Positions 1 through 37,984 of a stretch of 47,879 nt of DNA are shown piece after piece. Every line of letters starts with the position of its first letter. Position 1 is the stretch's first letter. The translations under genes were made by a program, and so were the position numbers. The DNA is taken from the NCBI RefSeq assembly GCF_004010195.1, contig NC_057755.1, positions 5,445,789 through 5,493,667 of the forward strand, read 5' to 3'. This stretch comes from Chiloscyllium plagiosum (taxonomy: Eukaryota). The notes beneath the pieces were generated by a model. The model did no database searches, had not been told where the DNA came from, and saw only the letters and a list, made by a program, of their open reading frames with translations.

Positions 1-1955
1 CCAGAGGTTTGCTGTGTTTATATCTGTATCACTCTTGAGCAATATCGGCCTGTTTGTTCTTGCGGTCAGCGGCATGCTCCCTTTCCTGAGATGTGACACA
101 GGTCACTCATCCCCATATCAGCTATGAAGACTGGATGCTTAATTTTCAACAGAAGGAGAAGTTTGTCATAAAGGGGAGTGTGCAGATGACAATCAGGAGA
201 TGTTCGGCGCTGAGCGGGTATCCAGGGACAAAATCGCCATCTTCAAATAGGGTCGGTACGCCAGATATAGGCTGTGGATTCTGAGTAGAATCTTGGTTCA
301 TTATTTTACATCGTTGTCGCTTTAACCCTGTTCGTAAATTCCTCAGTCTTAGTGGCCGTACACTGCTTCTCATGTCCCTTTTTTATCATCTCATGTCCCT
401 TTAATTTTTTCATCTACCTATTCACAACACTTCGCATTTCTTAAGAGTTCCATCTGCGAAACATGCATCTATCTCCCAATCACGTGCAAAATTCCTTCAA
501 CTGGCCAGTAAGGTATGTTTCTACTCTTTCGTTTGCAATACATTAATGCAGCTATGCTTCAAATTAACGATTAAGCACTGAGACAGGTCACTGACAATGT
601 CTAAAGGAACAAAACCAAGTGATCCTGACAATTAAGCATGCGTTTGTGATTCAGGGCGAATACAATTGATTATATTAAAATAGTAAATAAAATAATCGTT
701 ATCTGTAAGTCAGAGCTGAAAATTGAACAAGTGACTAAGACATTTTATAAGTCATCAATATAAACTGGAAATTAATTTAGTCAGTATTCAATATATAAAT
801 TGCAAAAATATGTAATGTTTCTAAATATGAAATTCATTATAATTATCTGGTTTCAAACCTTTAGGCTCGTTAAGCAGTCCTGACCAGTCATTGTGCATTT
901 GCAATTCTATAAGCCGTGAAATGACTGCAGCTGCGTTAAAAGGTCTTGTCTACTCACGTGGTAAGAAAAAATTTCTCATGCACGAATATTGGCCTAATCC
1001 AAAGACACAGGTATTAACCATAGGATGTTAATTTTGTGACATGATTTATCACAATGTTGAACTTAACCTTCAATTGTCATTGAGGAATGGGAATTGATAT
1101 CAAATAAAGCTACGACTGGCACACCAGAATTCCCAATGAAACACATCAGTCTTAAAATTAAGCGGAAACAAATGAGACTGAAACAATATTTAAATTTTCT
1201 AGTATCATCTTCTGAAAAGTATCTTGTTTGTCTGGGGCATTAAGGATTTATCTTTATACTTCCAGTTTTACAAATTTTAACTAAATTAAGTAGGGTTCAT
1301 GCAACTCCTCCACACAATGAGCAAACGTTAAAGTCTGAAGTGATTTTCCTCCATGTGAGGTTTAGATTATAACTGAAGTTGAGCAGAGAGCTGTTCTCAT
1401 CCCGTAACAGTATGAGTCTGCACCAGAGACGCAGATTGAGTGTTGTTGCTATACTTCCTTCGGTCAATTCTTTCATGAGAAGTGAGAAGGGTGAAAATGA
1501 TTTTGACAGTGGCATGAAATTATGGAGAACTTGAGAGCAAGTTTATACTGATGTCAAATGGTGCAGAATCAAAGGAGAAGACATTTAAAAAATATATAAT
1601 GTCGTCTTCCTCTGTATTAAACTGATCTGAAATGAAATAAGATCGGCTGTCATGTCAGCACAATAGTGGTTAGTTAAAAACTGACAGTAGGGCAGTCATG
1701 GCCGGTAAGAGGAAGAGGGGTTCATATTTCCTTCCATAATCACTGACGAATGCTTGACTTTAAAGGAAATCATGTTAAATTCCCGAAATGCAAATCAAAT
1801 TTGAAATAGTCCTGGATCTCGAGCTCCAGGGATCAAAATACAAACATTCACCAACAAGTAAATGTGCATCCAAATCACAAAGGTTTAAATTTTCTACAAG
1901 CCGCAGGGGATCAGGACTGAGTTTCTCTCCCTCTTTCTCTGTCTCTCACTGTCTC

Positions 1956-2002
<47 letters not shown>

Positions 2003-2073
2003 AGTATTGGAATTCCTGGCTATGCCACATAGAAACTCAACCAAGTATGCGAGAATTGTATCACCGGCCAGCT
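1..2073 (-). mobile_element. ERV copy A (partial: leader and 5' gag region), inverted
   Basis: Reverse complement of copy B about 5113-7183 (e.g. ORF MQIKFEIV..LELQGSKYKHS at 1788+ mirrors 5388-). Runs off the window start. Confidence 0.9.
1921..2002. repeat. (CT)n microsatellite inside ERV leader
   Basis: Visible CT run; shorter versions occur in copies B (about 5184-5253), C and D. Confidence 0.9.
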
Positions 2074-2289
2074 CGGACCAACATTTTCGCTCATCCGTAA
2101 CTGCCGAGAGGGCAGGTCAGTGTCAACCACGTTGTGTGGGTCTGGAGTACATTATAGGACTGACCAAGAAATGGCAGCAGTTTGATCTGTTCATTTTACC
2201 ACCAGCTGTCTCAAAGTCCTCAAGTTATTCTCAGCAAACAGTTGCCAGTTCATAGCTCGAAGCACATTTTGTTAAAATGATGCAACTAA

Positions 2290-3140
2290 CAAAGAGTCAG
2301 TGAAGGTTCTTTCACCTCTGTGAAGCCAGGCCTTGGGGCGAATTGTCGGATGAGTCTGGATTAAAAGGGTGTCTACTGACACCACGACCACCGGGAAGAA
2401 CATCCTGAGTATCAGCAAATTCTTCTCGATGACACCAAGTGAACAGACAGCGTGGCCTCCCATTTGGTCCTCTCTCTGTCACGGAGGGATTAGACGACAG
2501 CAGACGGGAGAATCTGCACCAGCCGTTCCCTCTGTCAAAGCTGACCAACACCGTCAAGTCCTTAGAAAGGAGTACAACTTCTAGAGGCGATGGATGCCCA
2601 GATGAGTTGTTTTCACCTTTGTGGAACTTGATCGTCCTGGACCTGCTGGAAGTGGATAACTGTCTGCTTCGGGGTAGCCTTTGTGAATGCAACAGCAAAG
2701 TTATCATCCATCTCATCTACAGTTAGAAGGAGGAATACCGCGGGCTGACGACTGGTTTCACTGCTCCATGCAGTTTACAGAATCCTGCCTGAGATCATTG
2801 CCAACTAGGTCAGGTCTCCTGTGGGATCAATGATTCACCCCGACCAAACCTGTGTTGTAATGTCTCCCACTCGTCAGCGATGTAATTGTCTACATGTGGG
2901 ATAATGAGGTTGGAAACCTGCCTTACCAGCCTGGATCAGGAGAAGGCCATTGACAGGAATCACACCCCAGAACATGGGGCGTACTCTTCAAAATTGGCTT
3001 TGGTAACGAGACCTGCAATTGGATGCGACTGCTCTGCATCAACGGCGGTAGTGCAGTCTGAGTAAGTGGGTGGGAACCAGAAAGGTTCCCGAACAGTCCT
3101 GGAATCAGGCAGCGCCGCCTATTGTCACCTTTCCTGTTTG
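2290..3140 (+). mobile_element. Decayed Tx1/L1-clade LINE ORF2 (RT) fragment in the A/B spacer
   Basis: Degenerate motifs IHPDQTC, SLDQEKA.DR, GFG....NW.RLL and SG.RQG.PLSP.LF read across frameshifts. Confidence 0.75.
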
Positions 3141-3729
3141 ATGATTGTCCAAGAGGTGACTGAATTAGCGTTGTGATTCATTAAGATGTTTCATACTCTT
3201 TAGCCATTGCCTATTTACCGAGATCTCAGTCCACGTTTGCCCATTTATGCATCAATTCCTTGTTGTTCTTTTTAGTTAGCTTCAGGGCTCTGAGTTTCAT
3301 ATTCAATTTCTTCATTCTCCAACTTCATAAACAATTTGAGCATTGTATGGGTCATTCTTCACAAATACAATAATGTTGTGACATAATGCTATCTCATTGT
3401 GTTCGTAATTTTTGGAAAATATATAACAGATTGCTGCATGCTTACATCTGTGCTCCTGTGTCAATCCAATGCGGCTGGATGGTATAAACTAGTCCTTTCA
3501 ATGTGCATTCTGGATTCAGGTACTTGGGCGGTAGTGAACAGTTCAAATATTTGATTTATTGTTTCAGTCTGTTTCTGAACAAATACTTCGCACATCATCA
3601 TGAAGACAAAATTTTAAAAATACGTTTAGATAGTTACTATGTTATTTAACAAATATGTTATTGAGGATCCCCTGAAAATGAAAAAAATAAATAGTAAAGT
3701 GCTGGAAATAACCCTGTCCCTAGACCTGT

Positions 3730-4026
3730 GAGGCAGTGGAATTATCACTGGACTGTCAACTCAGAGTCTCAGGTAATGTTCTGGGGACCCGGACACAGCA
3801 GAGGATGGTATTTCAATTTAGCAAAAGTCTGGAATAAAAGAGACCAAAGTATGTCGGTTCGCTCATATCCTTTTGAGAGTGGAACTGCTGTCTTTTCTTG
3901 GTCAGTACTATAATGTACTCGAGACCCACACAACGTGGTTGACACTGACCTGTCCTCTCGGCAATTACGGATGAGCGAAAATGTTGGGCCGAGCAGCGAC
4001 GCCCTCATTCCCTGAATGAATAAAAA
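3730..4026 (+). mobile_element. SacSINE/DeuSINE-type tRNA-derived SINE (old copy); its 3' part is co-duplicated at 2071-2182 (-) and about 16215-16335 (+)
   Basis: Head GGCAGTGGAATTATCACTGGACT, body CCAGACCCACACAACGTGGTTGAC, tail CATTCCCTGAATGAATAAAAA resemble shark Deu-type SINEs as recalled. Confidence 0.6.
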
Positions 4027-4296
4027 CAAAGCCCCTTCTTGAAACTGTAACAGAGGAATTGAAGGAGGCAATTTCACCCATTTTTGAAATGGTTAAGGTG
4101 ACCAGCAGAGACCATTCATCCTCTCTCATGTGAGGAGATGAACAGCCCACACCGTTCGACTTGAAAAAGCCAAGGCATGCAGGAAAGGGAAGATGTGAGG
4201 AGAGGGAAATTGTGTGACGTTCAATTGCTAATGTTCATTGACTGATCGTGGAACAGACAATCCCCCCTTCTCTCAAGGGGGCCCAGATCTTCAATC

Positions 4297-4314
4297 TGGT
4301 GCTGTGACTCGGAC
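4297..4314 (+). promoter_or_regulatory. Primer-binding site, tRNA-His (second copy at 16605-16622)
   Basis: TGGTGCTGTGACTCGGAC versus the complement of the tRNA-His 3' end TGGTGCCGTGACTCGGAT (16/18), 3 nt after the LTR-terminal CA. Confidence 0.88.
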
Positions 4315-4546
4315 TCGGCATGGACGAATTGTGGGCAGCAGTGGAAGAGCCTTGAGACCTCTACTGTTGAGTTCAGATAAGTCGGCCAGCCAGACGTGAG
4401 TATTTTTTCCCGTTTGGTTTTCCTTTCATTCAAGTCGTGGTTAACTCAACCCCTCGCTGCTCAGCATCTCATTGCAGGCCAAGAAGGATTAGTCCAAGTA
4501 AGAATACACTTTGAAAGAAAGGTATGTGGGACCCCAGGGAATTGGG

Positions 4547-4765
4547 GACCCTAGGGAGTTGAGGACTCTAACTAACAGGTTGGGACCTGTGAATAGATTC
4601 GGGGAGACTGAAAAGACTGGGATCGTGAACCCCAGGGTGTTTGGGACTCGTACTAACAGGTTGGGGACCTGTGAATAGAGTCGGGGACTCTTAAAAGAGA
4701 GCGCTCGGGGGACCCCAGGGTGTCAGGGACTCCCACTTACAGGTCGGGGACCTGAAGATAGAGTC
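4547..4765 (+). repeat. About 80-bp degenerate tandem repeat (about 2.7 units) in ERV leader
   Basis: Recurring ACCC.AGGG..T..GGACTC..ACT.ACAGGT.GGGACCTG...ATAGA.TC at about 4547, 4629 and 4712; also in copies C and D. Confidence 0.8.
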
Positions 4766-6659
4766 AAGACACAGACTTGGTCTGATTGGTGTCGTCAAAA
4801 TGGATTCCCAAATTGTTCTGTGAAAAACGAAACAAAGAATTTTTGCGAGATATTGTGACAAAACTGTCTGGATTTTAGAATGTCGAAAATGTTTTTTCAG
4901 AAATCATTAGTCTTGTTGTTCATTGTCGTTTTGTTGATTACTGAAAGCTTTAGGTCGAGATTATCTTCTCTGTTTTATCTGTTCGGCTTACCTTTTCCTG
5001 CTTTGCTGCTTTGTATTGTTTGCCTGCTGTGGTTTTGTTCTGTTTGTTTTGGAGTTTGTTGTTTGCTCATGAAATATAGAGGGTGGTTGCTGCTTTTGTT
5101 CAAAGAAACGAAAGCTGGCCGGTGATACAATTCACGCATACTTGGTGGAGCAGCTATGTGGCATAGCCAGGAATTCCAACACTAGAGAGAAAGAGAGAGC
5201 GAGAGAAAGAGAGAGAGTGAGAGACAGTGAGCGACAGAGAAAGAGGGAGAGAAACTCAGAGCTGATTCCCTGCGGCTTGTAGAAAATTTAAACCTTTGTG
5301 ATTTGGATGCACATTTACTTGTTGTTGAATGTTTGTATTTTGATCCCTGGAGCTCGAGATCCGGGACTATTTCAAATTTGATTTGCATTTCGGGAATTTA
5401 ACATGATTTCCTTTAAAGTTAAGGATTCATCAGTGATTATGGAAGGAAATATATACCCCTCGTCCTCTTACCTGCCATGACTGCCCTACTGTCAGTTTCT
5501 AACTAACCACTATTGTACTAACATGAAAGCCGATCTTATTTCTTTTCAGATCAGTTTAATACAGAGGAAGACGACATTATATATTTTTTTAAAAATGTCT
5601 TCTCCTTCGATTCTGCACCATTTGACATCAGTATAAATTTGCTCTCAAGTTTTCCATAATTTCATGCTACTGTCAAAGATCATTTTCACCCTTCTCACCC
5701 CTACGTGTAGTACTAACGAAAGAATTGACCGAAGGAAATATAGCAATAACACTAAATCTGCGCCTCTGGTGCAGAATCATACTGTTACGGGATGAGAGCA
5801 GCTCTCTGCTCAATTTCACTTATAATCTAAACCTAACATGGAGGAAAATCACTTCAGACTTTAATATTTGCTCATTGTGTGCAGGAGTTGCATGAACCCT
5901 ACTGAATTTAGTTAAAATTTATAAAACTGGAAGTATAAAGATAAATCCAAAATGTCCCAGACAAACAAGATACTTTTCAGAAGATGATACTAGAAAATTT
6001 AAATAATGTTTCAGTCTCATTTGTTTCCGCTTAATTTTAAGACTGATGTGTTTCATTGGGAATTATGGTGTGCCAGTCGTCGCTTTAGTTGATATCAATT
6101 CCCCTTCCTCAATGACAATTGATGTTTAAGTTCAACATTAAGTTGTGATAAATCATGTAACAAAATTAACATCCTATGGTTAATACCTGTGTCTTTGGAT
6201 TCGGCCAATATTCGTGCATGAGAAATTTTTTTCTTACCACGTGAGTAGACAAGACCTTTTAACGCAGCTGCAGTCATTCACGGCTTATAGCATTGCAAAT
6301 GAACAATGACTGGTCTGGTCTGCTGAAGGAGCCTAAAGGATTGAAACCAGGTAATTATAATGAATTTCATATTTAGAAACATTCCATATTTTGCATTTTA
6401 TATATTGAATACTGAATAAATTAATTTCCAGTTTATATTGATGACTTAGTCACTTATTCAATTTTCAGCTCTGATTTACAGATAACGATTATTTTATTTA
6501 CTATTTTAATATACTCAATTGTATTCGCCCTGAATCACAAACGCATGCTTAATTGTCAGGATCACTTGGTTTTATTCCTTTACATATTGTCAGTGACATG
6601 TCGCAGTGCTTAATCGTTAATTTGAAGCATAGCTGCATTAATGTATTGCAAACTAAAGA

Positions 6660-7723
6660 GTGGAACTATACCTTACTGGCCAGTTGAAGGAGTTTTGCAC
6701 GTGATTGGGAGATAGATGTTTGTATAGCAGATGGAACTCTTAAGAAATGCGAAGTGTTGTGAATAGGTAGATGAAAAAATAAAAGGGACATGAGATGATA
6801 AAAAAGGGACATGAGAAATAGTGTTAGGCCACTAAGACTGAGGAATTTACGAACAGGGATAAAGCAACAACGATGTAAAATAATGAACATAGATTCTACT
6901 CAGAATCCCCAGTCTATGTCTGGCGTACTGACCCTATTTGAGGATCGTGATTTTGTCCCTGGATACCCGCTCAGCCCCTAACATCTCCTGATTGTCATCT
7001 GCACACTCCCCTTTATTACAAACCTCTACTTTTGTTGAAAATTAAGCATTCTGTCTTCATAGCTGATATGGGGATGAGTGGCCTGTGTCACATCCCAGGA
7101 AAGAGAGCGTGCCGCTGACCGCAAGAACAAACAGGCCGAATTTGCTCAAGAGTGATACAGATATAAACACAGCAAACTTCTGGGAGTAGCCTGAATACGA
7201 ATGGCTTGTGTTACAAGACTGAAGTATGTGGCTATCTGTCTGATGGATGTGGTATACAATTGAATAATAATCAAGATGCTCAATCACCTTTGTTTCACCC
7301 TATGCCTTTGCAATATTTTCCACCTGGTGTCACTGACATGATCCAGGCAAACAGTAGGAACAAGTCCAGGAATGTCCAGTCGCAAATAAGGTGAGTGGAT
7401 GTTTTCTATTGGGATACCCATAAACAGACTGAACCGCAATACAAGTTAAAGGTAAAACCGATTATGTCCAGTGCCCTCGCGGTCCCGAATGCAGTGTGCC
7501 GACTCTGACAGGACTGATTGGGACCAGGATACCCACTGGGGGCGTAACCTACCACCCACCGACCACCTTTTAGCAACCTTTTCCTGAGGGGACCCTGGAA
7601 ATGGGGACAGGCGTACCCCAGTATGACACCTTTGAGACTGAGAACAAGACAGTAAATCCCCCAGGGACAAGTGGCTGGCCCTTGCCTTAAATGTGGAAAT
7701 GTGGCCACTGGGGAATGATGTGT
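6660..7723 (+). pseudogene. gag: gag remnant (copy B)
   Basis: Matrix-like WPVEG at about 6677; CCHC knuckle C-L-K-C-G..G-H-W-G-M-M-C at 7683-7723 with a 1-nt frameshift; many stops. 5' boundary uncertain. Confidence 0.7.
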
Positions 7724-7739
7724 ATTTTATGCTATCTTA

Positions 7740-8420
7740 GAGCTAACGTGGGGAATCGGCATGCTTGCGTTCGAGCAAAACGAAAATCTACTAAAAACAT
7801 TGATTCTTCATTGTGCTCTTTGTGTGTTCCAATATTTTGGAGCCTTGCGGGGACATAAAATATTTCTAACACTCATGGAGCGGCGTTGTAATGCTGTTTT
7901 GTCCAATCAATCTGTACGTTATCAAGATGTTCCACTCACCCTAAGGTAATTGATACAGTTTCCAACGTAATGGGCAAGTGGATGCTGCTGCCAAGCAGCC
8001 AGCCTTACCCCCAAACCTCGGGTCACTTTGGGTCCCCGGTAAAACGCAGAAAGAGACAATATGGGGTTAGGCATGCCAGCTATGTGTAAAGTACAGAAAT
8101 CACAGGGAAAAACCCCTGATGAAGAGCGCAACATATGACCTCAGATTGGGTACTTAACGATACTCAAATCGAAATGTGGGTGAAACCTGCTGGACAAGTT
8201 TGTGTTCTTTCTTTGTTGCTGCCTATTTTAGTAGATTTTATGCATTTTTGCACACAATTGAGAAAGGAGAGAATGGTTTATACTCTCTTACGAAGGACAA
8301 GCCATGGCCTACAACCTCGATGGAAGGGCCACTTCCAGACTCTCCTCACAACCACTACAGCTGATAAGGTCGCCAGGCAACTCCCTCATTGCACGGTCAT
8401 CAGACAAGCCACATGCAAGG
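7740..8420 (+). pseudogene. pol: pol remnant: RNase H and integrase pieces only (copy B)
   Basis: IDS.HCALCVFQYFGAL.GHKIFLT (RNase H YTDS.YAFGV.H.FG.LW..RGFLT-like), NGQVDAAAKQ, and LQPRWKG(P/H)FQ.LLTT.TA.KVA (integrase GPY/F tail). Confidence 0.85.
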
Positions 8421-8426
8421 TGGGTG

Positions 8427-9795
8427 ATGATGAAGATCAAACTTACCCTGCTGTATGGACTCGTCGTAGCCGGCATTGGTGCTCAAGAAGGGACGGTTTA
8501 CCCGTGAGACCTCGAGCAACCAGAGACTGTGTCTTTTTGTGCCAAGAGACTGATTCTTTCGACACATGGAACTTGACCAAGAATGATTGTTACAATGATC
8601 AACTGCATCAAGAAGATTGGACAGTTCTTTCACAGGACAAATCTCAATGGTACTTACTCAGTCAAGGTGTTGCGTGCCAGTTTGATTTCAGTTGTGATAC
8701 GAGCGGCCGAGTAAGCCTGGCTCCTATTCAAAGAGGTTTAAATTGGCACGTTGCAAAAGAGAAAAGGGAGAATATTATCTCTCATGAAAAAGTTGTTTCC
8801 TCAAAGTCAAAATAAATTATTCGGCGGGGATGAAGTGGTTTATTTGATCACTTGCGCCTCCTCTCCACCCCCATCCCAACAAAGGGGTATGGACTGCTTA
8901 TATGTCGTTTCCTGGACATAATATTTTTGATGAGAAGAAGGGTTTCTGCCAGAAACGTCGATTCTCCTGCTCCTTGGATGCTGCCTGACCTGCTGCGCTT
9001 TTCCAGCAACACATTTTTCAGCTCTGACATCCAGCATCTGCAGTCCTCACTTTCACCTACATAATATTTTTGACTATGACTTAAACTGCTTGTTGCTTTT
9101 GGACTTGCTCCGTGGTAGCCTATCATAATTGTAAAGACAGAACGGTATGGGAGTACAGTTATGTGAATGTGTCTAAGGCCCTTTGTGCTATGGTTAAAAG
9201 CACCACCAAACTTCACTATGAGAAACCTAATGGCACCTCCGTCTTCCCCATTGTTGGATAGACGGAACCAGTCTGGGACAATAACCACATCTCTTACCGT
9301 AGGACGCACCACATTTACATTGACCAGCTTTCATCTTCAGCGTTCAGTACAACCACACTTTGGAGTCATGGACTGCACATGTATTCGGGGAAGTCACAAA
9401 GCCAGGCCTGTTTCTTATTGCAAGCTCCCTCCATTATCTGTACTAAACCTGGTTACTATTTTTTCAGCCAAGGCAAAGAGACCAACTTACTTGTTATTGG
9501 TGAAATAGGTATTCCCCGTGCTATAGCTGTCGGGACACGTTTCCCGACTACGGTTCCCTGTCAACTACCTGGGAATGAGGTTGGAGTTTCCCTGGCAAAC
9601 GTTCAGTTTTATCTGAGTTCAGTGTGCATTGGAGAGGTGCTCAGGCTTTGGACAACACTGAAGCTCACTCTGTGGACTATGCATTTCTTCATACTTTTTC
9701 CTTCGGAGGATCTTCTGGAATGATGAGCTATCTAAAACGAAATTATCTTATTTGCGGTGTCAGTCTCTTGGGCAACGAGACAGCCTTGGCCTTAG
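8427..9795 (+). pseudogene. env: env remnant (copy B), interrupted by a short PLE-derived element and the gap
   Basis: Signal-peptide-like MMKIKLTLLYGLVVAGIGAQEG, Cys-rich SU, ..KR/SV cleavage-like site, TM start ..ICGVSLLGNETALAL. Confidence 0.85.
8931..9058 (+). mobile_element. Short Penelope-derived non-autonomous element in env (also 11464-11591 -, 21186-21313 +, 21961-22088 +)
   Basis: GAAGAAGGG..GCC.GAAACGTCGATTCTCCTGCTCCTTGGATGCTGCCTGACC..CAGTCCTCACTTTC flanked by a 15-bp TSD ACATAATATTTTTGA (8916-8930 and 9059-9073). Confidence 0.85.
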
Positions 9796-13096: not shown

Positions 13097-16000
13097 CAGA
13101 TAGCATAAAATACACATCATTCCCCAGTGGCCACATTTCCACAGTTAAGGCAAGGGTCAGCCACTTGTCCCTGGGGGATTTACTGTCTTGTTCTCCGTCT
13201 CAAAGGTGTCATACTGGGGTATGCCTGTCCCCATTTCCAGGGTCCCCTCAGGAAAAGGTTGCTAAAAGGTGTTCGGTGGGTGGTAGGTTACGCCTCCAGT
13301 GGGTATCCTGGTCCCAATCAGTCCTGTCAGAGCCGGCACGCTGCATTCAGGACCGCGAGGGCACTGGACATAATCGGTTTTACCTTTAACTTGCATTGTG
13401 GTTCAGTCTGTTTATGGGTATCCCAATAGAAAACAACCACTCACCTTATTTGCGACTGGACATTCCTGGACTAGTTCATCCTGTTTGCCTGGATCATGTC
13501 AGTGACACCAGGTGGAAAATATTGCAAAGGCATAGAGTTAAACAAAGGTGATTGAGCATCTTGATTATTATTCAATTGTATACCACATCCATCAGACAGA
13601 TAGCCACATACTTCAGTCTTGTAACACAAGTCATTCGTATTCAGGCTTCTCCCAGAAGTTTGTTGTGTTTATATCTGTATCACTCTTGAGCAAATTCGGC
13701 CTGTTTGTTCTTGCGGTCAGCAGCATGCTCTCTTTCCTGGGATGTGACACAGGCCACTCATCCCCATATCAGCTATGAAGACTGGATGCTTAATTTTCAA
13801 CAAAAGGAGAAGTTTGTAATAAAGGGGAGTGTGCAGATGACAATCAGGAGATGTTAGGGGCTAAGCCGGTATCCAGGGACAAAATCATCATCCTCAAATA
13901 GGTTCGGTACGCCAGACACAGGCTGGGGATTCTGAGTAGAATCGAGGTTCATTATTTTACATCGTTGTTGCTTTAACCCTGTTCGTAAATTCCTCAGTCT
14001 TAATGGCCTTAGACTGTTTCTCATATCCCTTTTTTATCATCTCATGTCCCTTTTATTTTTTCATCTACCTATTCACAACACTTCGCATTTCTTAAGAGTT
14101 CCATCTGCTATACATGCATTGATCTCCCAATCACGTGCAGGTATATTTCCACTCTTTAGTTTGCAATACATTAATGCAGCTATGCTTCAAATTAACGATT
14201 AAGCACTGAGACAGGTCACTGACAATGTGTAAAGGAACAAAACCAAGTTATCCTGACAATTAAGCATGCGTTTGTGATTCAGGGCGAATACAACTGATTA
14301 TATTAAAATAGTAAATAAAATAATCGTTATCTGTAAGTCAGAGCTGAAAATTGAACAAGTGACTAAGACATTTTATAAGTCATCAATATACACTGGAAAT
14401 TAATTTATTCAGTATTCAATATATAAATTGCAAAATATGGAATGTTTCTAAATATGAAATTCATTATAATTACCTGGTTTCAATCCTTTGGGCTCCTTAA
14501 GCAGTCCTGACCAGTCATTGTTCATTTGCAATGCTATAAGCCGTGAAATGACTGCAGCTGCATTAAAAGGTCTTGTCTACTCACGTGGTAAGAAAAAAAT
14601 TCTCATGCACGAACATTGGCCGAATCCAAAGACACAGGTATTAACCATAGGATGTTAATTTTGTTGCATGATTTATCACAACTTAATGTTGAACTTAAAC
14701 ATCAATTGTCATTGAGGAATGGGAATTGATATCAAATAAAGCTACGACTGGCACACCATAATTCCCAATGAAACACATCAGTCTTAAAATTAAGCGGAAA
14801 CAAATGAGACTGAAACAATATTTACATTTTCTAGTATCATCTTCTGAAAAGTATCTTGTTTGTTTGGGACATTTTGGATTTATCTTTATACTTCGAGTTT
14901 TACAAATTTTAACTAAATTAAGTAGGGTTCATGCAACTCCTCCACACAATGAGCAAATGTTAAAGTCTGAAGTGATTTTCCTCCATGTTAGGTTTAGATT
15001 ATAACTGAAATTGAGCAGAGAGCTGTTCTCATCCCATAACAGTATGATTCTGCACCAGAGGCGCAGATTTAGTGTTATTGCTATACTTCCTTCGGTCAAT
15101 TATTTCATTAGTACTACACGTATGGGTGAGAAGTGTGAAAATGATCTTTGACAGTAGCATGAAATTATGGAGAACTTGAGAGCAAGTTTATACTGATGTC
15201 AAATGGTGCAGAATCGAAGGAGAAGACATTTTTTTAAAAATATATAATGTCGTCTTCCTCTGTATTAAACTGATCTGAAATTAAATAAGATCGGCTTTCA
15301 TGTTAGCACAATAGTGGTTAGTTAGAAACTGACAGTAGGGCAGTCATGGTCGGTAAGAGGAAGAGGGGTTCATATTTCCTTCCATAATCACTGATGAATC
15401 CTTAACTTTCAAGGAAATCATGTTAAATTCCCGAAATGCAAATCAAATTTGAAATAGTCCCGGATCTCGAGCTCCAGGGATCAAAATACAAACATTCAAC
15501 AACAAGTAAATGTGCATCCAAATCACAAAGGTTTAAATTTTCTACAAGCCGCAGGGAATCAGCTCTGAGTTTCTCTCCCTCTTTCTCTGTCTCTCACTGT
15601 CTCTCACTCTCTCTCTTTCTCTCGCTCTCTCTTTCTCTCTAGTATTGGAATGCCTGGCTATGCCACATAGCTGCTCAACCAAGTATGCGTGAATTGTATC
15701 ACCGGCCAGCTTTCGTTTCTTTGAACAAAAGCAGCAACCACCCTCTATAATTCATGAACAAACAACAAACTCCAAAACAAACAGAACAAAACCACAGCAG
15801 GCAAACAATACAAAGCAGCAAAGCAGGAAAAGGTAAGCCGAACAGATAAAACAGAGAAGATAATCTCGACCGAAAGCTTTCAGTAATCAACAAAACGTCA
15901 ATGAACAACAACACTAATGATTTCTGACAAAACATTTTCCACATTCTAAAAGCCAGACAGTTTTGTCACAATATATCGCAAAAATGCTTTGTTTCGTTTT

Positions 16001-16544
16001 TCACAGAACAATTTGGGAATCCATTTTGACGACACCAATCAGACCAAGTCTGTGTCTTGACTCTATCTTCAGGTCCCCGACCTGTAAGTGGGAGTCCCTG
16101 ACACCCTGGGGTCCCCCGAGTGCTCTCTTTTAAGAGTCCCCGACTCTATTCACAGGTCCCCAACCTGTTAGTACGAGTCCCAAACACCCTGGGGTTCACT
16201 ATCCCAGGGTGAACGTACCAATGTACTCCAGACCCACACAACGTGGTTGACACTGACCTGCCCTCTCGGCAATTACGGATGAGCGAAAATGTTGGTCCAA
16301 GCAGCGACGCCCTCATTCCCTGAATGAATAAAAACAAAGCCCCATCTTGAAACTGTAACAGAGGAATTGAAGGAGGCAATTTCACCCATTTTTGAAATGG
16401 TTCAGGTGACCAGCAGAAGGCCATTCATCCCCTCTCATGTGAGGAGATGAACAGCCCACACTGTTCGACTTGAAAAAGCCAAGGCACGCGGAAAAGGAAG
16501 GTGTGAGGAGAGGGAAATTGTGTGACGTTCAATTGCTAATGTTC

Positions 16545-19500
16545 ATTGACTGATCGTGGAACAGACAATCCCCCCATCTCTCAAGGGGACCCAGATCTTC
16601 AAGCTGGTGCTGTGACTCGGACTCGGCATGGACGGATTGTGGGCAGCAGTGGAAGAGCCTTGAGACCTCTACTGTTGACTTCAGATAAATCGGCCAGCCA
16701 GACTTTAGTATTTTTTCCGTTTGGTTTTCCTGTCATTCAAGTCGTGGTTGATTCGACCCCTCGCTGCTCAGCATCTCATTGCAGGCCAAGAAGGATTGGT
16801 CCTAGTAAGAATACACTTTGAAAGAAAGGTGTGTGGAACCCCAGGGAGTTGGGGACTCTAACTAACAGGTTGGGACCTGTGAATAGATTCGGGGAGACTG
16901 AAAAGACTGGGATAGTGAACCCCAGGGTGTTTGGGACTCGTACTAACAGGTTGGGGACCTGGTATTAGAGTCGGGGACTCTTAAAAGAGAGCGCTCAGGA
17001 GACCCCAGGCTGTCAGGGACTCCCACTTATAGGTCGGGGACCTGAAGATAGAGTCAAGACACAGACTTGGTCAGATTTGTGTCGTCAAAATGGATTCCCA
17101 AATTGTTCTGTGAAAAACGAAACAAAGAATTTTTGCGATATTTTGTGACAAAACTGTCTGGCTTTTAGAATGTCGAAAATGTTTTTCAGAAATCATTAGT
17201 CTTGTTGTTCATTGCCGTTTTGTTGATTACTGAAAGTTTTAGGTCGAGATTATCTTCTGTGTTTTATCTGTTCAGCTTACCTTGTCCTGCTTTGTATTGT
17301 TTGCCTGCTGTGGTTTTGTTCTGTTTGTTTTGGAGTTTGTTGTTTGTTCAGGAAATATAAAGGGTGGTTGCTGCTTTTGTTCAAAGAAACGAAAGCTGGC
17401 CGGTGATACAATTCTCGCATACTTGGTTGAGCAGCTACGTGGCATAGCCAGGAATTCCAATAGTAGAGAGAAAGAGAGAGATTGATAGACAGAGAAAGAG
17501 GGAGAGAAACTCAGAGCTGATTCCCTGCGGCTTGTAGAAAATTTAAACCTTTGTGATTTGGATGCACATTTACTTGTTGTTGAATGTTTGTATTTTGATC
17601 CCTGGAGCTCGAGATCCGGGACTATTTCAAATTTGATTTGCATTTCGGGAATTTAACATGATTTCCTTTAAAGTTAAGGATTCATCAGTGATTATGGAAG
17701 GAAATATGAACCCCTCTTCCTCTTACCGACCATGACTGCCCTACTGTCAGTTTCTAACTAACCACAATTGTGCTTCGATGAAAGCCGATCTTATTTAATT
17801 TCAGATCAGTTTAATACAGAGGAAGACGACATTATATATTTTTTAAAAAATGTCTTCTCCTTCGATTCTGCACCATTTGACATCAGTATACACTTGCTCT
17901 CAAGTTCTCCATAATTTCATGCTACTGTCAAAGATCATTTTCACCCTTCTCACCCCTACGTGTAGTACTAATGAAAGAATTGACCGAAGGAAGTATAGCA
18001 ATAACACTAAATCTGCGCCTCTGGTGCAGAATCAAACTGTTCCGGTATGAGAGCAGCTCTCTGCTCAATTTCAGTTATAATCTAAACCTAACATGGAGGA
18101 AAATCACTTCAGACTTTAATATTTGCTCATTGTGTGGAGGAGTTGCATGAACCCTACTTAATTTAGTTAAAATTTGTAAAACTGGAAGTATAAAGATAAA
18201 TCCAAAATGTTCCAGACAAACAAGATACTTTTGAGAAGATGATACTAGAAAATTTAAATATTGTTTCAGTCTCATTTGTTTCCGCTTAATTTTAAGACTG
18301 ATGTGTTTCATTGGGAATTATGGAGTGCCAGTCGTAGCTTTATTTGATATCAATTCCCCTTCCTCAATGACAATTGAAGTTTAAGTTCAACATTAAGTTG
18401 TGATAAATCATGTAACAAAATTAACATCCTATGGTTAATACCTGTGTCTTTGGATTCGGCCAATATTCGTGCATGAGAAATTTTTTTCTTACCACGTGAG
18501 TAGACAAGACCTTTTAACGCAGCTGCAGTCATTTCACGGCTTATAGCATTGCAAATGAACAATGACTGGTCAGGTCTGCTGAAGGAGCCTAAAGGATTGA
18601 AACCAGGTAATTATAATGAATTTAATATTTAGAAACATTACAGATTTTGCAATTTATATATTGAATACTGAATAAATTAATTTCCAGTGTATATTGATGA
18701 CTTATAAAATGTCTTAGTCACTTGTTCAATTTTCAGCTCTGACTTACAGATAACGATTATTTTATTTACTATTTTAATATAATCAATAGTATTCGCCCTG
18801 AATCACAAACGCATGCTGAATTGTCAGGATCACTTGGTTTTGTTCCTTTACACATTGTCAGTGATCTGTTTCAGTGCTTAATCGTTAATTTGAAGCATAG
18901 CTACATTAATGTATTGCAAACTAAAGAGTGGAAACATACCTTACTGGCCAGTTGAAGGAATTTTGCACGTGATTGGGAGATAGATGCATGTACAGCAGAT
19001 GGAACTCTTAAGAAATGCGAAGTGTTGTGAATAGGTAGATGAAAAAATAAAAGGGACATGAGATGATAAAAAAGGGACATGAGAAACAGTGTAAGGCCAC
19101 TAAGACTGAGGAATTTACGAACAGGGATAAAGCGACAACGATGGAAAATAATGAACGTAGATTCTACTCAGAATCCCCAGCCTATGTCTGGCATACTGAC
19201 CCTATTTGAGGATGGTGATTTTGTCCCTAGATACCCACTCAGCCACTAACATCTCCTGATTTTCATCTGCACACTCCCCTTTATTACAAACTTCTCCTTA
19301 AGTTGAAAATTAAGCATCCAGTCTTCATAGCTGATATGGGGATGAGTGGCCTGTGTCACATCCCAGGAAAGAGAGCATGCCGCTGACTGCAAGAACAAAC
19401 AGGCCGAATTTGCTCAAGAGTGATACAGATATAAACACAGCAAACTTCTGGGAGAAGCCTGAATACGAATGGCTTGTGTTACAAGACTGAAGTATGTGGC

Positions 19501-21337
19501 TATCTGTCTGATGGATGTGGTATACAATTGAATAATAATCAAGATGCTCAATCACCTTTGTTTAACCCTATGCCTTTGCAATATTTACCACCTGGTGTCA
19601 CAGACATGATCCAGGCAAACAGTATGAACAAGTCCAGGAATGTCCAGTCGCAAATAAGGTGAGTGGATGTTTTCTATTGGGATACCCATAAACAGACTGA
19701 ACCACAATGCAAGTTAAAGGTAAAACCGATTATGTGCAGTGCCCTCGAGGACCCGAATGCAGTGTTCCGGCTCTGACAGGACTGATTGGGACTAGGATAC
19801 CCACTGGGGCGTAACCTACCACCCACCGACCACCTTTTAGCAACCTTTTCCTGAGGGGACCCTGGAAATGGGGACAGGCGTCATCTTTGAGACTGAGAAC
19901 AAGTCAGTAAATCCCCCAGGGACAAGTGGCTGGCCCTTGCCTTAACTGTGGAAATGTGGCCACTGGTGAATGACGTGAATTTTATGCTATCTTGTAGCTA
20001 ACGTGTGGAATTGGCATGCTTGCGTTCGAGCAAAACGAAAATCTACTAATATACATTGATTCTTCATTGTGCTCTTTGTGTGTTCCAATATTTTGGAGCC
20101 TTGGGGGGACATAAATTATTTCTAACACTCATGGGGCGGCGTTATAATGCTGTTTTGTCCAATCAATCTGTGCGTTATCAAGATGTTCCACTCACACTAA
20201 GGTAATTGATACAGTTTCCAACGAAATGGGCAAGTGGATGCTGCTGCCAAGCAGCCAGCCTTACCCTCCAAACCTCTGGTCACTTTGGGTCCCCAGTAAA
20301 ACGCAGAAAGTGACAATATGTGGTTAGGTATGCCAGCTATGTATAAAGTACAGAAATCACAGGGAAAATCCCCTGATGAAGAGCGCAACTTATGACCTCA
20401 GAATGTGAACTTAACGATACTCAAATCGAAATGTGGGTGAAACCTGCTGGACAAGTTTGTGTTCTTTCTTTGTTGCTGCCTATTTTAGTTGATTTTATTC
20501 ATTTTTGTACACAATTGGGAAAGGAGAGAATGGTTTATACTCTCTTACAAGGACACTCCATGGCCTACAACCTCGATGGAAGGGGCCCTTCAGGCTCTCC
20601 TCACAACCACTGCAGCTGATAAGGTCGCCAGGCAATTCCCTCATTGCACGGTCATCAGACAAGCCCCATGCAAGGTGGGTGATGATGAAGATCGAACTTT
20701 CTCTGCTATATGGACTCGTCGGAGCCGGCATTGGTGCTCAAGAAGGGACGGTTTATCCGTGCGAACTTGAGCAACCAGAGACTGTGTCTTTTTGTGCCGA
20801 GAGACTGATTCTTTCGATGCATGGAACGTGACCAAGAATGATTGTCACAATGATCAACTGCATCAAGAAGATTGGACAGTTCTTTCACAGGACAAATCTC
20901 AATGGTATTTACCCTGTCAAGATGTTGCGTGTCAGTTTGATTTCAGTTGTGATACGAGCGGCCGACTAAGCCTGGCTCCGATTCAAGGAGGTTTAAATTG
21001 GCACGTTGCAAAAGAGAAAAGGGAGAATATTATCTCTCATGAAAAAGTTGTTTCCTCAAAGACAAAATAAATTATTTGGCGGGGATGAAGTGGTCTATTT
21101 GATCACTTTCCCCTCCTCTCCACCCCCATCCCAACAAAGGGGTATGGACTGCTTCCGTGTCGTTTACTGGGCATAACATTCTTAATGAGAAGAAGGGCTT
21201 ATGCCCGAAACGTCGATTCTCCTGCTCCTTGGATGCTGCCTGACCTGCTGCGCTTTTCCAGCAACACATTTTTCTGCTCTGACATCCAGCATCTGTAGTC
21301 CTCACTTTCACCTACATAATATTTTTGACTATGACTT
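16545..21337 (+). mobile_element. ERV copy D (U5 remnant and PBS to env SU, ends at gap)
   Basis: Colinear with copy B from the U5 end and PBS (16605-16622) to env. Confidence 0.92.
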
Positions 21338-21460
21338 NNNNNNNNNNNNNNNNNNNNNNNNNNNNNNNNNNNNNNNNNNNNNNNNNNNNNNNNNNNNNNN
21401 NNNNNNNNNNNNNNNNNNNNNNNNNNNNNNNNNNNNNNNNNNNNNNNNNNNNNNNNNNNN

Positions 21461-23411
21461 TGATGATCGAACTTTCTCTGCTATATGGACTCGTCGTAGC
21501 CGGCATTGGTGCTCAAGAAGGGACGGTTTATCCGTGCGAACTTGAGCAACCAGAGACTGTGTCTTTTTGTGCCGAGAGACTGATTCTTTCGATGCATGGA
21601 ACGTGACCAAGAATGATTGTCATAATGATCAACTGCATCAAGAAGATTGGACAGTTCGTTCACAGGACAAAACTCAATGGTATTTACCCTGTCAAGGTGT
21701 TGCGTGCCAGTTTGATTTCAGTTGTGATACGAGCGGCTGAGTAAGCCTGGCTCCTATTCAAAGATGTTTAAATTGGCACGTTGCAAAAGAGAAAAGGGAG
21801 AATATTATCTCTCATGAAAAAGTTGTTTCCTCAAAGACAAAATAAATTATTTGGCGGGGATGAAGTGGTCTATTTGATCACTTTCCCCTCCTCTCCACCC
21901 CCATCCCAACAAAGGGGTATGGACTGCTTCCATGTCGTTTACTGGGCACAACATTCTTAATGAGAAGAAGGGCTTATGCCCGAAACGTCGATTCTCCTGC
22001 TCCTTGGATGCTGCCTGACCTGCTGCGCTTTTCCAGCAACACATTTTTCTGCTCTGACATCCAGCATCTGCAGTCCTCACTTTCACCTATATAATATTTT
22101 TGACTATGACTTCACCTGCTTGTTGCTTTTGGACTTGCTCCGTAGAAGCCTATCATAATTGTAAAGACAGAACTGTATGGGGGTACACTTATGTGAATGT
22201 GTCTAAGGCTATTCCATGCAGCTTGATTAAATGTATCAATGGCGATTGGTATCGCATCTCATGCATATGCCTATGGGAGGAGTGTGCCTTTGTAACCCTG
22301 TTATTACTGGTGTTCAGGCCCTTTGTGCTATGGTTAACAGCACCACCAAACTTCACTATGAGAAAGCTAATGGCACCTCCGTCTTCCCCATTGTTGGATA
22401 GACGGAACCAATCTGGGACAATAACCACATCTCTTACCGTAGGACGCACCACATTTATTTTGACCAGCTTTCATCTTCAGCGTTCAGTACAACCACACTT
22501 TGGAGTCGTGGTCTGCACATGTATTCGGGGAAGTCACAAAGCCAGGCCTGTTTCTTATTGCAAGTTCCCTCCAGTATCTATACTAAACCTGGTTACTATT
22601 TTTTCAGCCAAGGCAAAGAGACCAACTTACTTGTTCTTGGTGAAATACCTTTTCCCCGAAATAAAATACTGTCGGGGTACGTTTCCCGACTACGGTTCCC
22701 TGTCAACTACTTGGGAATGAGGTTGGAGTTTCCCTGCCAAACGTTCAGTTTTATCTGAGTTCAGTGTGCATTGGAGAGGTGCTCAGGCTTTGTACAACAC
22801 TGAAGCTCAATCTGTGGACTATGCATTTCTTCGTACTTTTTCCTTCGGAGGATCTTCTGGAATGATGAGCTATCTAAAACGAAATTATCTTATTTGCGGT
22901 GTCAGTCTCTTGAGCAATGAGACAGCCTTGGCTTTAGCAGGGGTTTAAGACATGCTCTCAGAATTATGCCTAGATTCCCAACAAAACCGGCACGCCCTCG
23001 ACTACCTCCTCGCCAAAGAACGTTGTTTTTCGCCATAGAAAAGGGCAAGTGTATGTTGGGGTTACTGACCTCATCAAGAATATTACCAACCATCCCGATA
23101 ACAGTCACACCTTCCTCTCTCAAATGAGGGAAGTCACAGAACGGAGAGATTTGGGTTTTAGCTCATGGTACAACTGGTTGATAAGTCTTGCCATGCATAT
23201 TGCTCTTATTTAAATTTGCCTCTTTGATGGCGTTGCTATTATTAAATGTATTATTGCTAAGCTAATAACTTCTGTTGACAACATCGATTCATCTCAGAAA
23301 ATGCTTCTTCTCCATCCAAATGAAGATGAGGACGTGCGATTGCCTACCCCTGGTTCGGCGGAGGTGAAGAAGGAAGTATGTCATTCTCTAGCGTCCAATT
23401 GGTTGAACTGA
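21461..23411 (+). pseudogene. env: env remnant (copy D' after the gap), nearly complete through the cytoplasmic tail
   Basis: SU, TM with QQNRHALDYLLAKE, transmembrane segment and tail ..KKEVCHSLASNWLN* (TGA 23409-23411); frameshifts and stops present. Confidence 0.88.
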
Positions 23412-23430
23412 TCTAATCTGTTTAGATCAG

Positions 23431-23515
23431 AGTGGTGCTGCAAAAGCACAGCAGATCAAGCATCATCCGAGGAGCAGGAAAATCGACTTTTCGGGCAAAA
23501 GCCCTTCAGTAGGAA
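23431..23515 (-). mobile_element. Short Penelope-derived element fragment at the env/LTR boundary
   Basis: GTGGTGCTGCAAAAGCACAGCAG..GAGGAGCAGGAAAATCGACTTTTCGGGCAAAAGCCCTTCA is the reverse complement of the family head. Confidence 0.7.
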
Positions 23516-24316
23516 ACTCATGGCATCATCAGGCCATCTAATCTATGCCCACCCATAATATGGTGTGGTCATGGAACGACCAAAGAGCGGAGATGAGGAT
23601 CTGAAAACTGAAAACAGGCCGAGGTAACTAGTTGTTGTCAGGAAGAGCCACTTAAGACATATTCTTACTAACTTAGGTGGAAATAAAATGGTTTCTTCAT
23701 ACGAACAACAGAACAAAATGGCTTCTCGTTTGCAAATTGCCAATTCTGCTTTAAGCTGCTTAAAATGCCTTTTAACCCTGATAAAGCTGCATAACTGACT
23801 TGATCACAGTCTGTCTCAAGAAAGAATAGCAGACAATGCTTCCTTTACAGCACAGAATTAACTAGACTTGATAAGACACGACTGGCCATCATAACTAACA
23901 TTCAAGTGCATGTGAAAAAACGCGGTTCGTGACATAAGAATGGCTTAAGTTTTGGAAAGCAAAGTTGGTTTCCAGGAAATATTGGGTTAAGTTGCTGTAA
24001 AAAAATCGTTAAATTGATTGGTAATTGTTTGAATGAACTGTATGATTGTGGCATTCAAATCTCTTTAAGAGAAGTATAAAAATGTCTTTCTTTTAAGCCC
24101 TCTTTAAGAGAAGTATAAAAATGTCTTTCTTTTAAGCCATGGGCGCAGTTCCTCTGAGGAACATTGAAATGTTTAACCTCTGTGTTTCTGAATGTTCTGA
24201 GCCTGGCTGTGAACAATAAAATGTAAAGTCTTCAAGAACCAGACGAATTTCTTGTGTATATTGACCGATCACGGAACAGAGAGGCACCCCCCTCCCCCAC
24301 ACGGATCAGATCTTCA
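23516..24316 (+). mobile_element. ERV 3' LTR (5' boundary approximate)
   Basis: ATTGG (reverse CCAAT) near 24018, TATAAAAA twice, AATAAA 24215-24220, and terminus CAGATCTTCA identical to the sequence preceding the PBS. Confidence 0.8.
24061..24138 (+). repeat. Perfect 39-bp tandem duplication containing the LTR TATA box
   Basis: CTCTTTAAGAGAAGTATAAAAATGTCTTTCTTTTAAGCC at 24061-24099 and 24100-24138. Confidence 0.95.
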
Positions 24317-37754: not shown

Positions 37755-37984
37755 CTGAAAGACACAGGAGGTTAAATGCAAATCAGAAATTAATGATCAA
37801 ACATTCTCTGCTTCGGTTCAGAGAGCAACAGAAGTTCTCAGCACCTAACAGGGGCAACTGGAAGTGTTCAGATATGGAGTTTGAATATGACATCTTTAAT
37901 GGCCTGACACATTGTTTGAAGCAGCTCAATCTTGTGTTTGATTAATTGTGGGCAGGCAATCAACAGATGGCAGAGAGCATTATT

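What the first reader, a model, noticed from the sequence alone, without database searches (positions are those of the whole stretch)
1..24316. Array of one defective ERV in alternating orientations: two multi-kb palindromes side by side
Seen: copies A(-), B(+), C(-) and D(+) carry the same 5'-LTR truncation and flanking SINE piece where retained (B, D; SINE piece also in A), and B, C and D share the pro-RT deletion and env insertion. A/B and C/D head-to-head junctions lie in contiguous sequence, with spacers 2183-3882 and about 16207-16906. Spot checks give a few percent divergence. Inference: this is DNA-level fold-back amplification of one provirus plus flank, not reinfection. Read-through would give multi-kb hairpin RNA covering gag, IN and env, so it is a candidate endo-siRNA/piRNA source against the parent ERV family. 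That function is speculative.
Basis: partly seen in the sequence, partly recalled or inferred. Interest (0 to 1): 0.75.

Follow-up and report, generated by a model that had tools for sequence, protein, structure and literature searches.

The report
Fold-back amplified dead shark retrovirus
A long-dead retrovirus relic in a shark-type genome was copied several times by DNA rearrangement into mirror-image pairs that have decayed separately ever since; the structure is real and its joints are readable, but nothing shows that it makes silencing RNA.

Summary
The inverted copies are real. A(-), B(+), C(-) and D(+) are 3.6-5.8% apart and share a host SINE flank, a cut-down 5' LTR end, missing protease and RT, a missing integrase core and an env insertion, so they were copied as DNA. 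Differences are mostly private (154, against 15 shared, of 1945 columns). That argues against two alleles and against arm-to-arm homogenisation. The C/D joint carries a snap-back-type insert. Public contigs (3 of 3 DNA runs laid) suggest the A/B centre was a 136-bp loop later widened by a one-sided deletion.

Corrections: D is two sister pieces (2.45% apart) across a gap; gag was not confirmed by any search; B/C adjacency rests on a 500-N gap; the window's own junctions were not among the listed public joints. Silencing has no support: no upstream promoter, no pairing-preserving bias (p=0.83), near-zero reads in one polyA library, and no gonadal small-RNA data. Best reading: an old fold-back/template-switch amplification decaying neutrally, like human inverted triplications and K111/K222 expansions. 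The scan had no earlier look-alike on other DNA.

The parts
1..2182 (-). Copy A (cut by the window start): AT-rich block plus SINE piece; lacks the equivalent of B 3995-5112 (U5, PBS, leader), joined at a 3-bp microhomology
   Evidence: 5.8% from B over 2046 columns
2183..2318 (.). 136-bp segment S, inferred original fold-back loop; lies inverted relative to 2319 onwards in public contigs
   Evidence: table 5: opposite-strand joint 2180/2186-2319 in 3 of 3 DNA runs laid; geometry inferred from side lengths of 51-64 letters; 5-bp microhomology with the SINE
2319..3724 (+). Host flank F, present once in the window, repeat-rich (LINE-like RT words by eye near 2880-3150; not confirmed by Pfam or tblastn)
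3725..4027 (+). SINE in the 5' flank, apparently whole on the B side; A starts inside it at the B 3883 equivalent and D at B 3912 (start approximate; SacSINE1-like name recalled)
   Evidence: sequence, alignments; bin depth 1400-2500 at 3680-3934
4216..4293 (+). U5 end of the truncated 5' LTR in B (D: about 16524-16601)
   Evidence: local score 55-59 against the 3' LTR end, maximum of 200 shuffles 51; ends in CA three bases before the PBS
4297..4314 (+). Primer-binding site, tRNA-His-like (D: 16605-16622)
   Evidence: two letters from a PBS that PMC4724089 puts two mismatches from tRNA-His; His assignment otherwise recalled
4315..5113 (+). Leader-like region with 83-bp imperfect repeats (4544-4765)
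5255..7050 (+). AT-rich block (GC 0.356) in all four copies; decayed gag/accessory sequence or captured host DNA, unresolved
   Evidence: no protein match
7050..7733 (+). Probable gag 3' end (capsid-like words and a broken zinc-knuckle-like motif, by eye only)
   Evidence: translations; searches negative
7734..8430 (+). pol remnant: weak RNase H C-half (about 7745-8010), then the integrase N-terminal part (8165-8290) directly followed by the integrase C-terminal part (about 8291-8420); protease, RT and integrase core absent
8431..9795 (+). env remnant in B, with a private internal deletion of about 110 bp near 9179
   Evidence: 53% to zebra shark protein P0001
8934..9065 (+). Shared insertion in env: end piece of a very high-copy, Penelope-like element with a target duplication
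   Evidence: summed depth 3.4-4.7 million at 8780-9034; family name from earlier notes and recall
9796..10295 (.). 500-N gap at the tail-to-tail B/C junction; order, orientation and true length not shown by sequence
10296..16207 (-). Copy C, from env TM to the B 4617 equivalent; lacks SINE piece, U5 and PBS
12770..13097 (-). SINE insertion private to C (about 330 bp, 4-bp target duplication; HE1-like name recalled)
16185..16219 (+). C/D junction: 12-nt insert 16208-16219 whose first 4 nt extend a native short inverted repeat to an 11-bp stem and whose next 3 complete a second 6-nt inverted match
16220..21337 (+). Copy D1
21338..21460 (.). 123-N gap between two overlapping sister pieces
21461..24316 (+). 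Piece D2: rest of env (TM heptad region about 22880-23015), purine tract and the only 3' LTR (about 23594-24316, TG...CA, start placed by eye)
   Evidence: (PF22307, E 7.7e-05, below curated cut-off)

Best explanation
An old class I (gamma/epsilon-like) provirus in a shark genome first decayed in place: most of the 5' LTR, protease-RT and the integrase core were lost and a retroelement end inserted into env. A segment holding it and its host flank was then amplified as DNA by fold-back or template-switch events, giving copies in alternating orientation. The near-perfect palindrome centres were stabilised by one-sided deletions: A lost about 1.56 kb from the base of a 136-bp loop and another 1.1 kb, and C lacks 0.7 kb next to a snap-back insert. 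B, C and D arose at about the same time, A perhaps earlier, and the D1/D2 overlap later. Since then the copies have drifted independently and without evident function.

Shown: copies, shared flank and lesions, star-like divergence, junction sequences. Inferred: fold-back mechanism, loop geometry, order of events, neutrality.
For: Shared host SINE flank and shared lesions. 154 private against 15 shared-split sites of 1945 columns. B, C and D carry 90, 90 and 99 private changes, spread over all nine 500-bp bins. The spectrum is strand-symmetric, for example C>T 43 and G>A 42. The C/D insert is an inverted copy of adjacent sequence, as described for fold-back insertions (PMC11724301, abstract). 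The opposite-strand joint 2180/2186-2319 is in 3 of 3 DNA runs laid, and the 5-bp microhomology of A's deletion straddles that point. An organism B contig spans SINE-U5-PBS-leader, 3735-4805, with 74 other letters and 15 gaps. One-arm deletion at palindrome centres is the described outcome (PMC10766186, section 5).
Against: None of the window's own junctions (2182/2183, 2318/2319, C/D) is among the 15 joints (of 191) or 24 pieces listed. The B/C link is a 500-N gap. 11 of 37 top-listed differences are absent from every window copy yet common in both organism A runs, so a wider family exists and part of the spread may lie elsewhere. 15 shared splits plus 3 multi-state sites exceed the about 4 double hits expected, so a little conversion or short internal branches are possible. 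The loop geometry is my reading of one table row.
Confidence: 0.75

Rival explanations
1. The array is transcribed through its centres in the germline and yields long hairpin RNA that feeds endo-siRNA or piRNA against the parent ERV family.
For: The arms could still pair: C/D1 has 67 perfect runs of 21 bp or more, longest 182 bp, covering 3150 of 4190 matched bases; A/B has 35 such runs, longest 59 bp. A wider target family seems to exist.
Against: No U3 promoter upstream of any copy. Hairpin partners share fewest sites (AB|CD 3, against 7 and 5) and A/B is the most divergent pair. No G-U-preserving asymmetry (20:19 against 22:25, p=0.83; low power). Private SINE and deletions disrupt the arms. 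In run X21 (about 2 in 100 of one polyA single-cell run, tissue not given) depth is 1.9 or less outside the env insert, except 15.2 in one bin beside a microsatellite, and 14 of 30 bins are empty.
Confidence: 0.08
2. The copies are real members of a dispersed family, but the assembly joined them wrongly (chimeric contigs or scaffolding), so one or both palindromes do not exist as drawn.
For: Two gaps fall inside copies; D1/D2 overlap across one of them; the family is multi-copy; the window's junctions were not seen among the listed public joints.
Against: Both head-to-head centres are N-free and show biological signatures (microhomology, templated insert). Private changes are evenly spread, with no long chimeric block. 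At 4-6% divergence copies are usually separable (general knowledge).
Confidence: 0.11
3. A+B and C+D are two alleles (haplotigs) of one palindromic locus.
For: The two pairs are separated by a fixed-length gap; AC|BD is the commonest shared split (7 of 15).
Against: A-C 4.9% and B-D 4.1% are no closer than C-D 3.6%; diversity in one carpet shark is 0.2% (PMC10587355, passage); the two centres have different structures and breakpoints.
Confidence: 0.03
4. The copies arose by reinfection or retrotransposition in trans and inserted next to each other.
For: A wider family exists outside the window.
Against: The copies share host SINE flank upstream of U5, which reverse transcription would not copy; no copy has two LTRs; no strand-biased editing signature.
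Confidence: 0.03

Closest known systems
Human inverted triplications (TRP/INV, DUP-TRP/INV-DUP) and the ODIRA model (Brewer et al. 2024, PMC10766186; abstract and section 5 part 1 of 2 read)
   Same: Alternating orientation; palindromic junctions eroded by deletion of one arm at little or no microhomology.
   Different: Here the unit is about 7-9 kb of dead provirus plus flank, old (4-6% diverged) and apparently fixed, with four or five copies; copy-number steps and the B/C junction were not measured.
Fold-back inverted duplications with a single-copy spacer (Hermetz et al. 2014, PMC3907307; abstract and passages read)
   Same: Single-copy spacer between inverted arms (0.7 and 1.7 kb here; 766-70,466 bp there); short microhomology or inserts at junctions.
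   Different: No adjacent terminal deletion can be shown; the inferred original A/B loop (136 bp) is below their range; inverted microhomology at 2318/2319 could not be tested because the upstream flank is not in the window.
HERV-K(HML-2) K111 and K222 expansions (PMC3759726, PMC4425911; abstracts read)
   Same: One ancestral provirus multiplied as DNA, probably by recombination, not by reinfection.
   Different: Those are spread over centromeres and pericentromeres of many chromosomes; here copies are local and inverted. No satellite context was found in the window.
Mouse SD12A1 palindromic duplication (PMC13688818; passages read)
   Same: Palindrome arms at about 93% identity with no evidence of arm-to-arm conversion, read as neutral drift.
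   Different: Megabase scale there, kilobase scale and one ERV here.
Epsilon-like ERVs of cartilaginous fish (CmiERV lineages II/III; Han 2015, PMC4422223, part 1 of 2 read)
   Same: Shark host, class I-type integrase C-terminal domain, gamma-type env TM, tRNA-His-like PBS (as in walleye epsilonretroviruses, recalled).
   Different: RT is deleted, so no phylogenetic placement was possible; membership is not established.
Hairpin endo-siRNA loci (long inverted repeats in mouse oocytes, Drosophila hpRNAs; recalled, search found nothing)
   Same: Long inverted arms that could form dsRNA.
   Different: No transcript, promoter, small RNA or pairing-preserving evolution shown here.

Membership tests
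Endogenous retrovirus (class I-like) | Retroviral integrase upstream of a gamma-type env | tested here: met
   MLVIN_C E 4.5e-05 and env HR1-HR2 E 7.7e-05, both below Pfam's curated cut-offs; integrase N- and C-terminal parts score 5-19 bits against a profile of relatives, best of 30 shuffles 2.4
Endogenous retrovirus (class I-like) | PBS just after a 5' LTR end; purine tract before a TG...CA 3' LTR | tested here: met
   5' and 3' U5 ends align at about 71% over about 75 bp
Endogenous retrovirus (class I-like) | Recognisable gag | tested here: inconclusive
   motifs by eye only; no hit
Epsilon-like ERV | RT phylogeny with walleye/amphibian epsilonretroviruses | not testable with these tools
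   RT absent from all copies
Epsilon-like ERV | tRNA-His primer-binding site | tested here: inconclusive
   close to a His-like PBS in PMC4724089; not unique to this genus; host tRNA not available
DNA-level provirus amplification (K111/K222 type) | Copies share host flank and post-integration lesions | tested here: met
DNA-level provirus amplification (K111/K222 type) | Centromeric or pericentromeric spread over chromosomes | not testable with these tools
   no whole genome held
Fold-back inverted duplication / inverted triplication | Inverted arms around a single-copy spacer | tested here: met
   (spacer occurs once in the window)
Fold-back inverted duplication / inverted triplication | Short inverted homology, microhomology or templated insert at junctions | tested here: met
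   C/D insert; 3-bp and 5-bp microhomologies at A's deletions; not shown at 2318/2319 (fold z -0.29)
Fold-back inverted duplication / inverted triplication | Alternate head-to-head and tail-to-tail junctions on one molecule | tested here: inconclusive
   tail-to-tail junction lies in the 500-N gap
Hairpin endo-siRNA / piRNA source locus | Transcription across both arms | tested here: inconclusive
   one polyA single-cell run, about 2 in 100 read, near-zero depth; tissue and chemistry unsuited
Hairpin endo-siRNA / piRNA source locus | Small RNAs of 21-22 or 26-31 nt from the arms | not testable with these tools
   no small-RNA run was offered
Hairpin endo-siRNA / piRNA source locus | Sequence evolution that preserves arm pairing | tested here: not met
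   AB|CD shared sites 3 of 15; wobble test p=0.83, low power
Gene-converting palindrome (Y-chromosome type) | Arm-to-arm identity far above other paralogues | tested here: not met
   A-B 5.8%, C-D 3.6-4.5%, B-C 4.0-4.3%

The most novel reading that the evidence does not exclude
An ancient fold-back accident turned a dead provirus into a germline hairpin-RNA or piRNA locus, shared by related shark species, that still silences a multi-copy epsilon-like ERV family. It would be a small-RNA defence locus built by chromosome fold-back rather than by trapping insertions.
Probability: 0.07. Interest if true: 0.72.

Novelty: new member of a known kind. Interest (0 to 1): 0.32.

Why it matters
It is a clear fossil of germline inverted amplification at kilobase scale. 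Both surviving palindrome centres seem to record the one-sided erosion predicted for inverted triplications, in a slow-evolving lineage where junction signatures have lasted tens of millions of years. It also warns that ERV copy counts in sharks can reflect DNA rearrangement and not viral activity. Only if gonadal small RNAs map to the arms would it bear on how vertebrates build silencing loci against retroviruses.

Tried and rejected
No whole genome is held, so outside copies could not be mapped. No RNA holder was listed by the run index; that blank is not used as evidence.

gag identification failed: Pfam, homologue search, full HMMER search (2 hits, env and integrase only), PDB, ESM Atlas and tblastn with the first 600 residues of P0019. 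A weak PDB match to latrophilin (E 0.02) is treated as chance. Homologue search with the IN/env frame found nothing. The RNase H remnant scores 3-5 bits against a shuffle maximum of 5.5 of 60 and gave no PDB hit; only its collinear order in three copies supports it. LINE-like words in the spacer were not confirmed. No loci in viral contigs. No tRNA or Rfam match. The bacterial promoter scan is irrelevant to this host.

Assembly error as the source of divergence was rejected: few gaps, a private SINE with target duplication, and a B-private letter at 6316 carried by all run X1 contigs there. The low transition share (about 45%) is also seen between two SINE copies in the window (13 against 18). 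Editing hypermutation was rejected. Contig depth is not used as a copy number. Earlier-finding look-ups near this place, by sequence and by words were empty. PMC12368964 (abstract) and PMC13100897 (passages) were read and not used.
Full report
1. Observation. Self-alignment shows four related blocks in alternating orientation: A(-) 1-2182, B(+) 3883-9795, C(-) 10296-16207 and D(+) from 16220. N runs lie at 9796-10295 (500) and 21338-21460 (123). Both head-to-head centres are free of N. The stated spacers are right. The host is a shark or close relative: the best env relative is a zebra shark protein at 53% identity, and the SINE and retroelement types fit (names recalled; earlier notes say the same). 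No whole genome is held.

2. Corrections. D is two pieces. 20686-21337 and 21461-22112 overlap across the 123-N gap with 16 differences in 652 bases. They share 12 derived sites against B and C, with 1 conflicting site. At a diversity of 0.2-0.5% the chance of 16 differences is 4e-7 or less, and 1e-3 at 1%; 0.2% is reported for the epaulette shark (PMC10587355, passages). So D2 is more likely a younger tandem duplicate or a fifth copy than a second allele, and the only 3' LTR belongs to it. The 5' LTR remnant matches that LTR only over its last about 75 bp at about 71% (score 55-59, shuffle maximum 51 of 200), and the 190 bp before it do not align. The B/C link is a fixed-length gap, so 'side by side' is unverified.

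3. What the unit is. In B the order is host flank, SINE, U5 end, His-like PBS (4297-4314), leader, a 36%-GC block (5255-7050), probable gag end, pol remnant, env. Pfam finds only the integrase C-terminal domain and the env heptad region, both below curated cut-offs. A profile of natural Pol relatives finds no RT or protease in the first 25 kb. In B, C and D1 the integrase N-terminal part (to residue about 903 of reference P0009) is followed directly by the C-terminal part (from about 1164), so about 260 residues with the catalytic core are missing. Scores were 5-19 bits against a best of 2.4 in 30 shuffles. The RNase H remnant is weak: 3-5 bits, shuffle maximum 5.5 of 60, but collinear in three copies. 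gag is seen by eye only; the searches failed. Every frame has 66-81 stop codons shared by at least two of three copies, so the provirus was dead before it was copied.

4. How the copies relate. Over the 1945 ungapped columns common to A, B, C and D (microsatellite masked), 1773 are constant, 154 are private (60, 39, 28, 27), 15 are shared splits (AC|BD 7, AD|BC 5, AB|CD 3) and 3 are multi-state. Over 4.4 kb, B, C and D1 are 4.25-4.51% apart with 90, 90 and 99 private changes in all nine bins. The spectrum is strand-symmetric in all six pairs of changes (p 0.17-1.0). Copies also have private lesions: a SINE with target duplication in C, an env deletion in B, two deletions in A. Two alleles would give close A-C and B-D pairs and a shared centre; neither is seen. 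Converting palindrome arms would give an excess of AB|CD; it is the rarest class. Against a pure star: about 4 double hits are expected and 18 non-private variable sites are seen, and A's branch is longer (p=0.0004). With the 2.2e-10 per year rate assumed by Han 2015 (PMC4422223, part 1 of 2 read) B/C/D date to about 95 and A to about 125 million years. At 1e-9, my upper guess, they date to 21 and 28. The age is therefore tens of millions of years, poorly bounded.

5. Junctions. At C/D, C stops at the B 4617 equivalent and D starts at B 3912, with 12 inserted bases. The first four extend a native short inverted repeat into an 11-bp stem (16185-16211), a 1 in 256 chance for those four. The next three complete a second inverted 6-mer. 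The fold of the whole 111-nt stretch is not unusual (z -1.39), so the evidence is the local match only. Short templated inverted insertions by fold-back at breaks are described in yeast (PMC11724301, abstract). At A/B, B keeps the whole SINE and A starts inside it. I laid 4 of the 24 listed runs on 2150-9795. An opposite-strand joint between 2180/2186 and 2319 appears in all three DNA runs (two of organism A, one of organism B). The shorter side is 51-64 letters and only 31 letters lie left of 2180, so I infer that 2183-2318 is inverted in the window relative to those contigs. A's deletion ends on a 5-bp microhomology that straddles exactly that join. The simplest reading is a fold-back with a 136-bp loop and later loss of about 1.56 kb of one arm from the loop base. 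Brewer et al. (PMC10766186, section 5 part 1 of 2) describe such one-arm deletion as the usual fate of palindromic junctions. Hermetz et al. (PMC3907307, passages) report spacers of 766-70,466 bp with 2-8 bp microhomology or inserts. This step is inference from one table row.

6. Public data, for and against. An organism B contig spans 3735-4805 with 74 other letters and 15 gaps, so the SINE-U5-PBS-leader join predates that species split. All 30 bins are covered in all three DNA runs. Of the 40 difference rows shown (1190 hidden) I used 38, dropping two in the single-copy spacer; one more has no second window copy. Of the other 37, 24 match another window copy and 13 match none, 11 of these being common in both organism A runs. 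A wider family therefore exists outside the window; its size and flanks are unknown. Against: none of the window's own junctions is among the 15 joints shown (176 hidden) or bridged by the 24 pieces shown. The listing is dominated by the high-copy env insert, so this is neither support nor refutation.

7. Function. The arms could pair if transcribed: C/D1 has 67 perfect runs of 21 bp or more, A/B 35. But no copy keeps U3 upstream, and the one 3' LTR faces out of the array. Pairing partners are not homogenised, and a test for G-U-preserving changes is flat (20:19 against 22:25, p=0.83; low power). In run X21 (polyA single-cell, 1943 million letters, about 2 in 100 of the run) 2942 reads were laid and 98 in 100 run on into unlike sequence. 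14 of 30 bins are empty. Depth outside the env insert is 1.9 or less, apart from 15.2 beside the microsatellite. The tissue is not given and no small-RNA run was offered, so silencing is untested. I put it at about 0.08.

8. Comparison and novelty. The structure works like an eroded inverted triplication. Its DNA-level spread resembles K111 and K222 (PMC3759726, PMC4425911, abstracts), and its unconverted arms resemble mouse SD12A1 (PMC13688818, passages). The element is a class I-like ERV; epsilon membership cannot be tested without RT, although class I epsilon-like elements are among the main fish ERVs (PMC4977317, passages). Seven literature searches (listings only, open-licence papers only) showed no description of an inverted array of one ERV in a shark; subscription papers and supplements were not seen. 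The scan held no look-alike. Earlier notes gave the Penelope-like label for the env insert (loose ends show the same element family continuing upstream) and the lead that the AT-rich block may be captured host DNA, which I could not confirm.

9. Verdict. Real, old, DNA-level inverted amplification of one dead provirus with its flank (confidence 0.75). It is a new member of a known kind with unusually legible junctions and no shown function. Interest 0.32; 0.72 if gonadal small RNAs proved a silencing role (probability 0.07).

Noticed in passing
window 36889-37782 (-) and 30085-30330 (-): A 297-codon stop-free GPCR frame (7tm_1, E 5e-13) and a 54%-identical remnant of a second one; resembles the expanded shark GPR139-like receptors (name recalled). 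The array may sit beside a tandem receptor cluster.
   Followed up: partly
window 20686-21337 and 21461-22112: Direct overlap at 97.55% across a 123-N gap; if the gap length is right it is a 775-bp tandem duplication in env, about half as old as the array.
   Followed up: partly
window 5255-7050 and its copies: 1.8-kb AT-rich block between leader and probable gag end, with no protein match and high public contig depth; could be captured host DNA or a nested repeat.
   Followed up: partly
window 4216-4293 against 24240-24316: 5' and 3' LTR ends are only about 71% alike, far older than the 4-6% between copies; either a very old insertion or LTRs of two related families.
   Followed up: partly
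window 12770-13097: C's private SINE inserted within about 10 bp of the point where the probable gag end meets the RNase H remnant.
   Followed up: no
window 1-2070: Copy A has more private changes (60) than B, C and D (39, 28, 27; p=0.0004): an earlier split or a faster rate.
   Followed up: partly
window 32383-32960 and 34697-35274: 578-bp direct repeat at 99.1% identity; a recent duplication or an assembly duplication.
   Followed up: no
window 43902-44092 and 44545-44735: 191-bp inverted pair at 99% identity around a 450-bp spacer; looks like a fold-back retroelement insertion.
   Followed up: no
window 31757-32422 (-) and 39047-39581 (-): CR1/L2-type LINE reverse-transcriptase remnants (RVT_1 E 3.5e-08 for the first).
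   Followed up: no
window 1-24316: Transversions outnumber transitions among private changes (153 against 126 in B, C, D), unlike the usual vertebrate pattern.
   Followed up: partly
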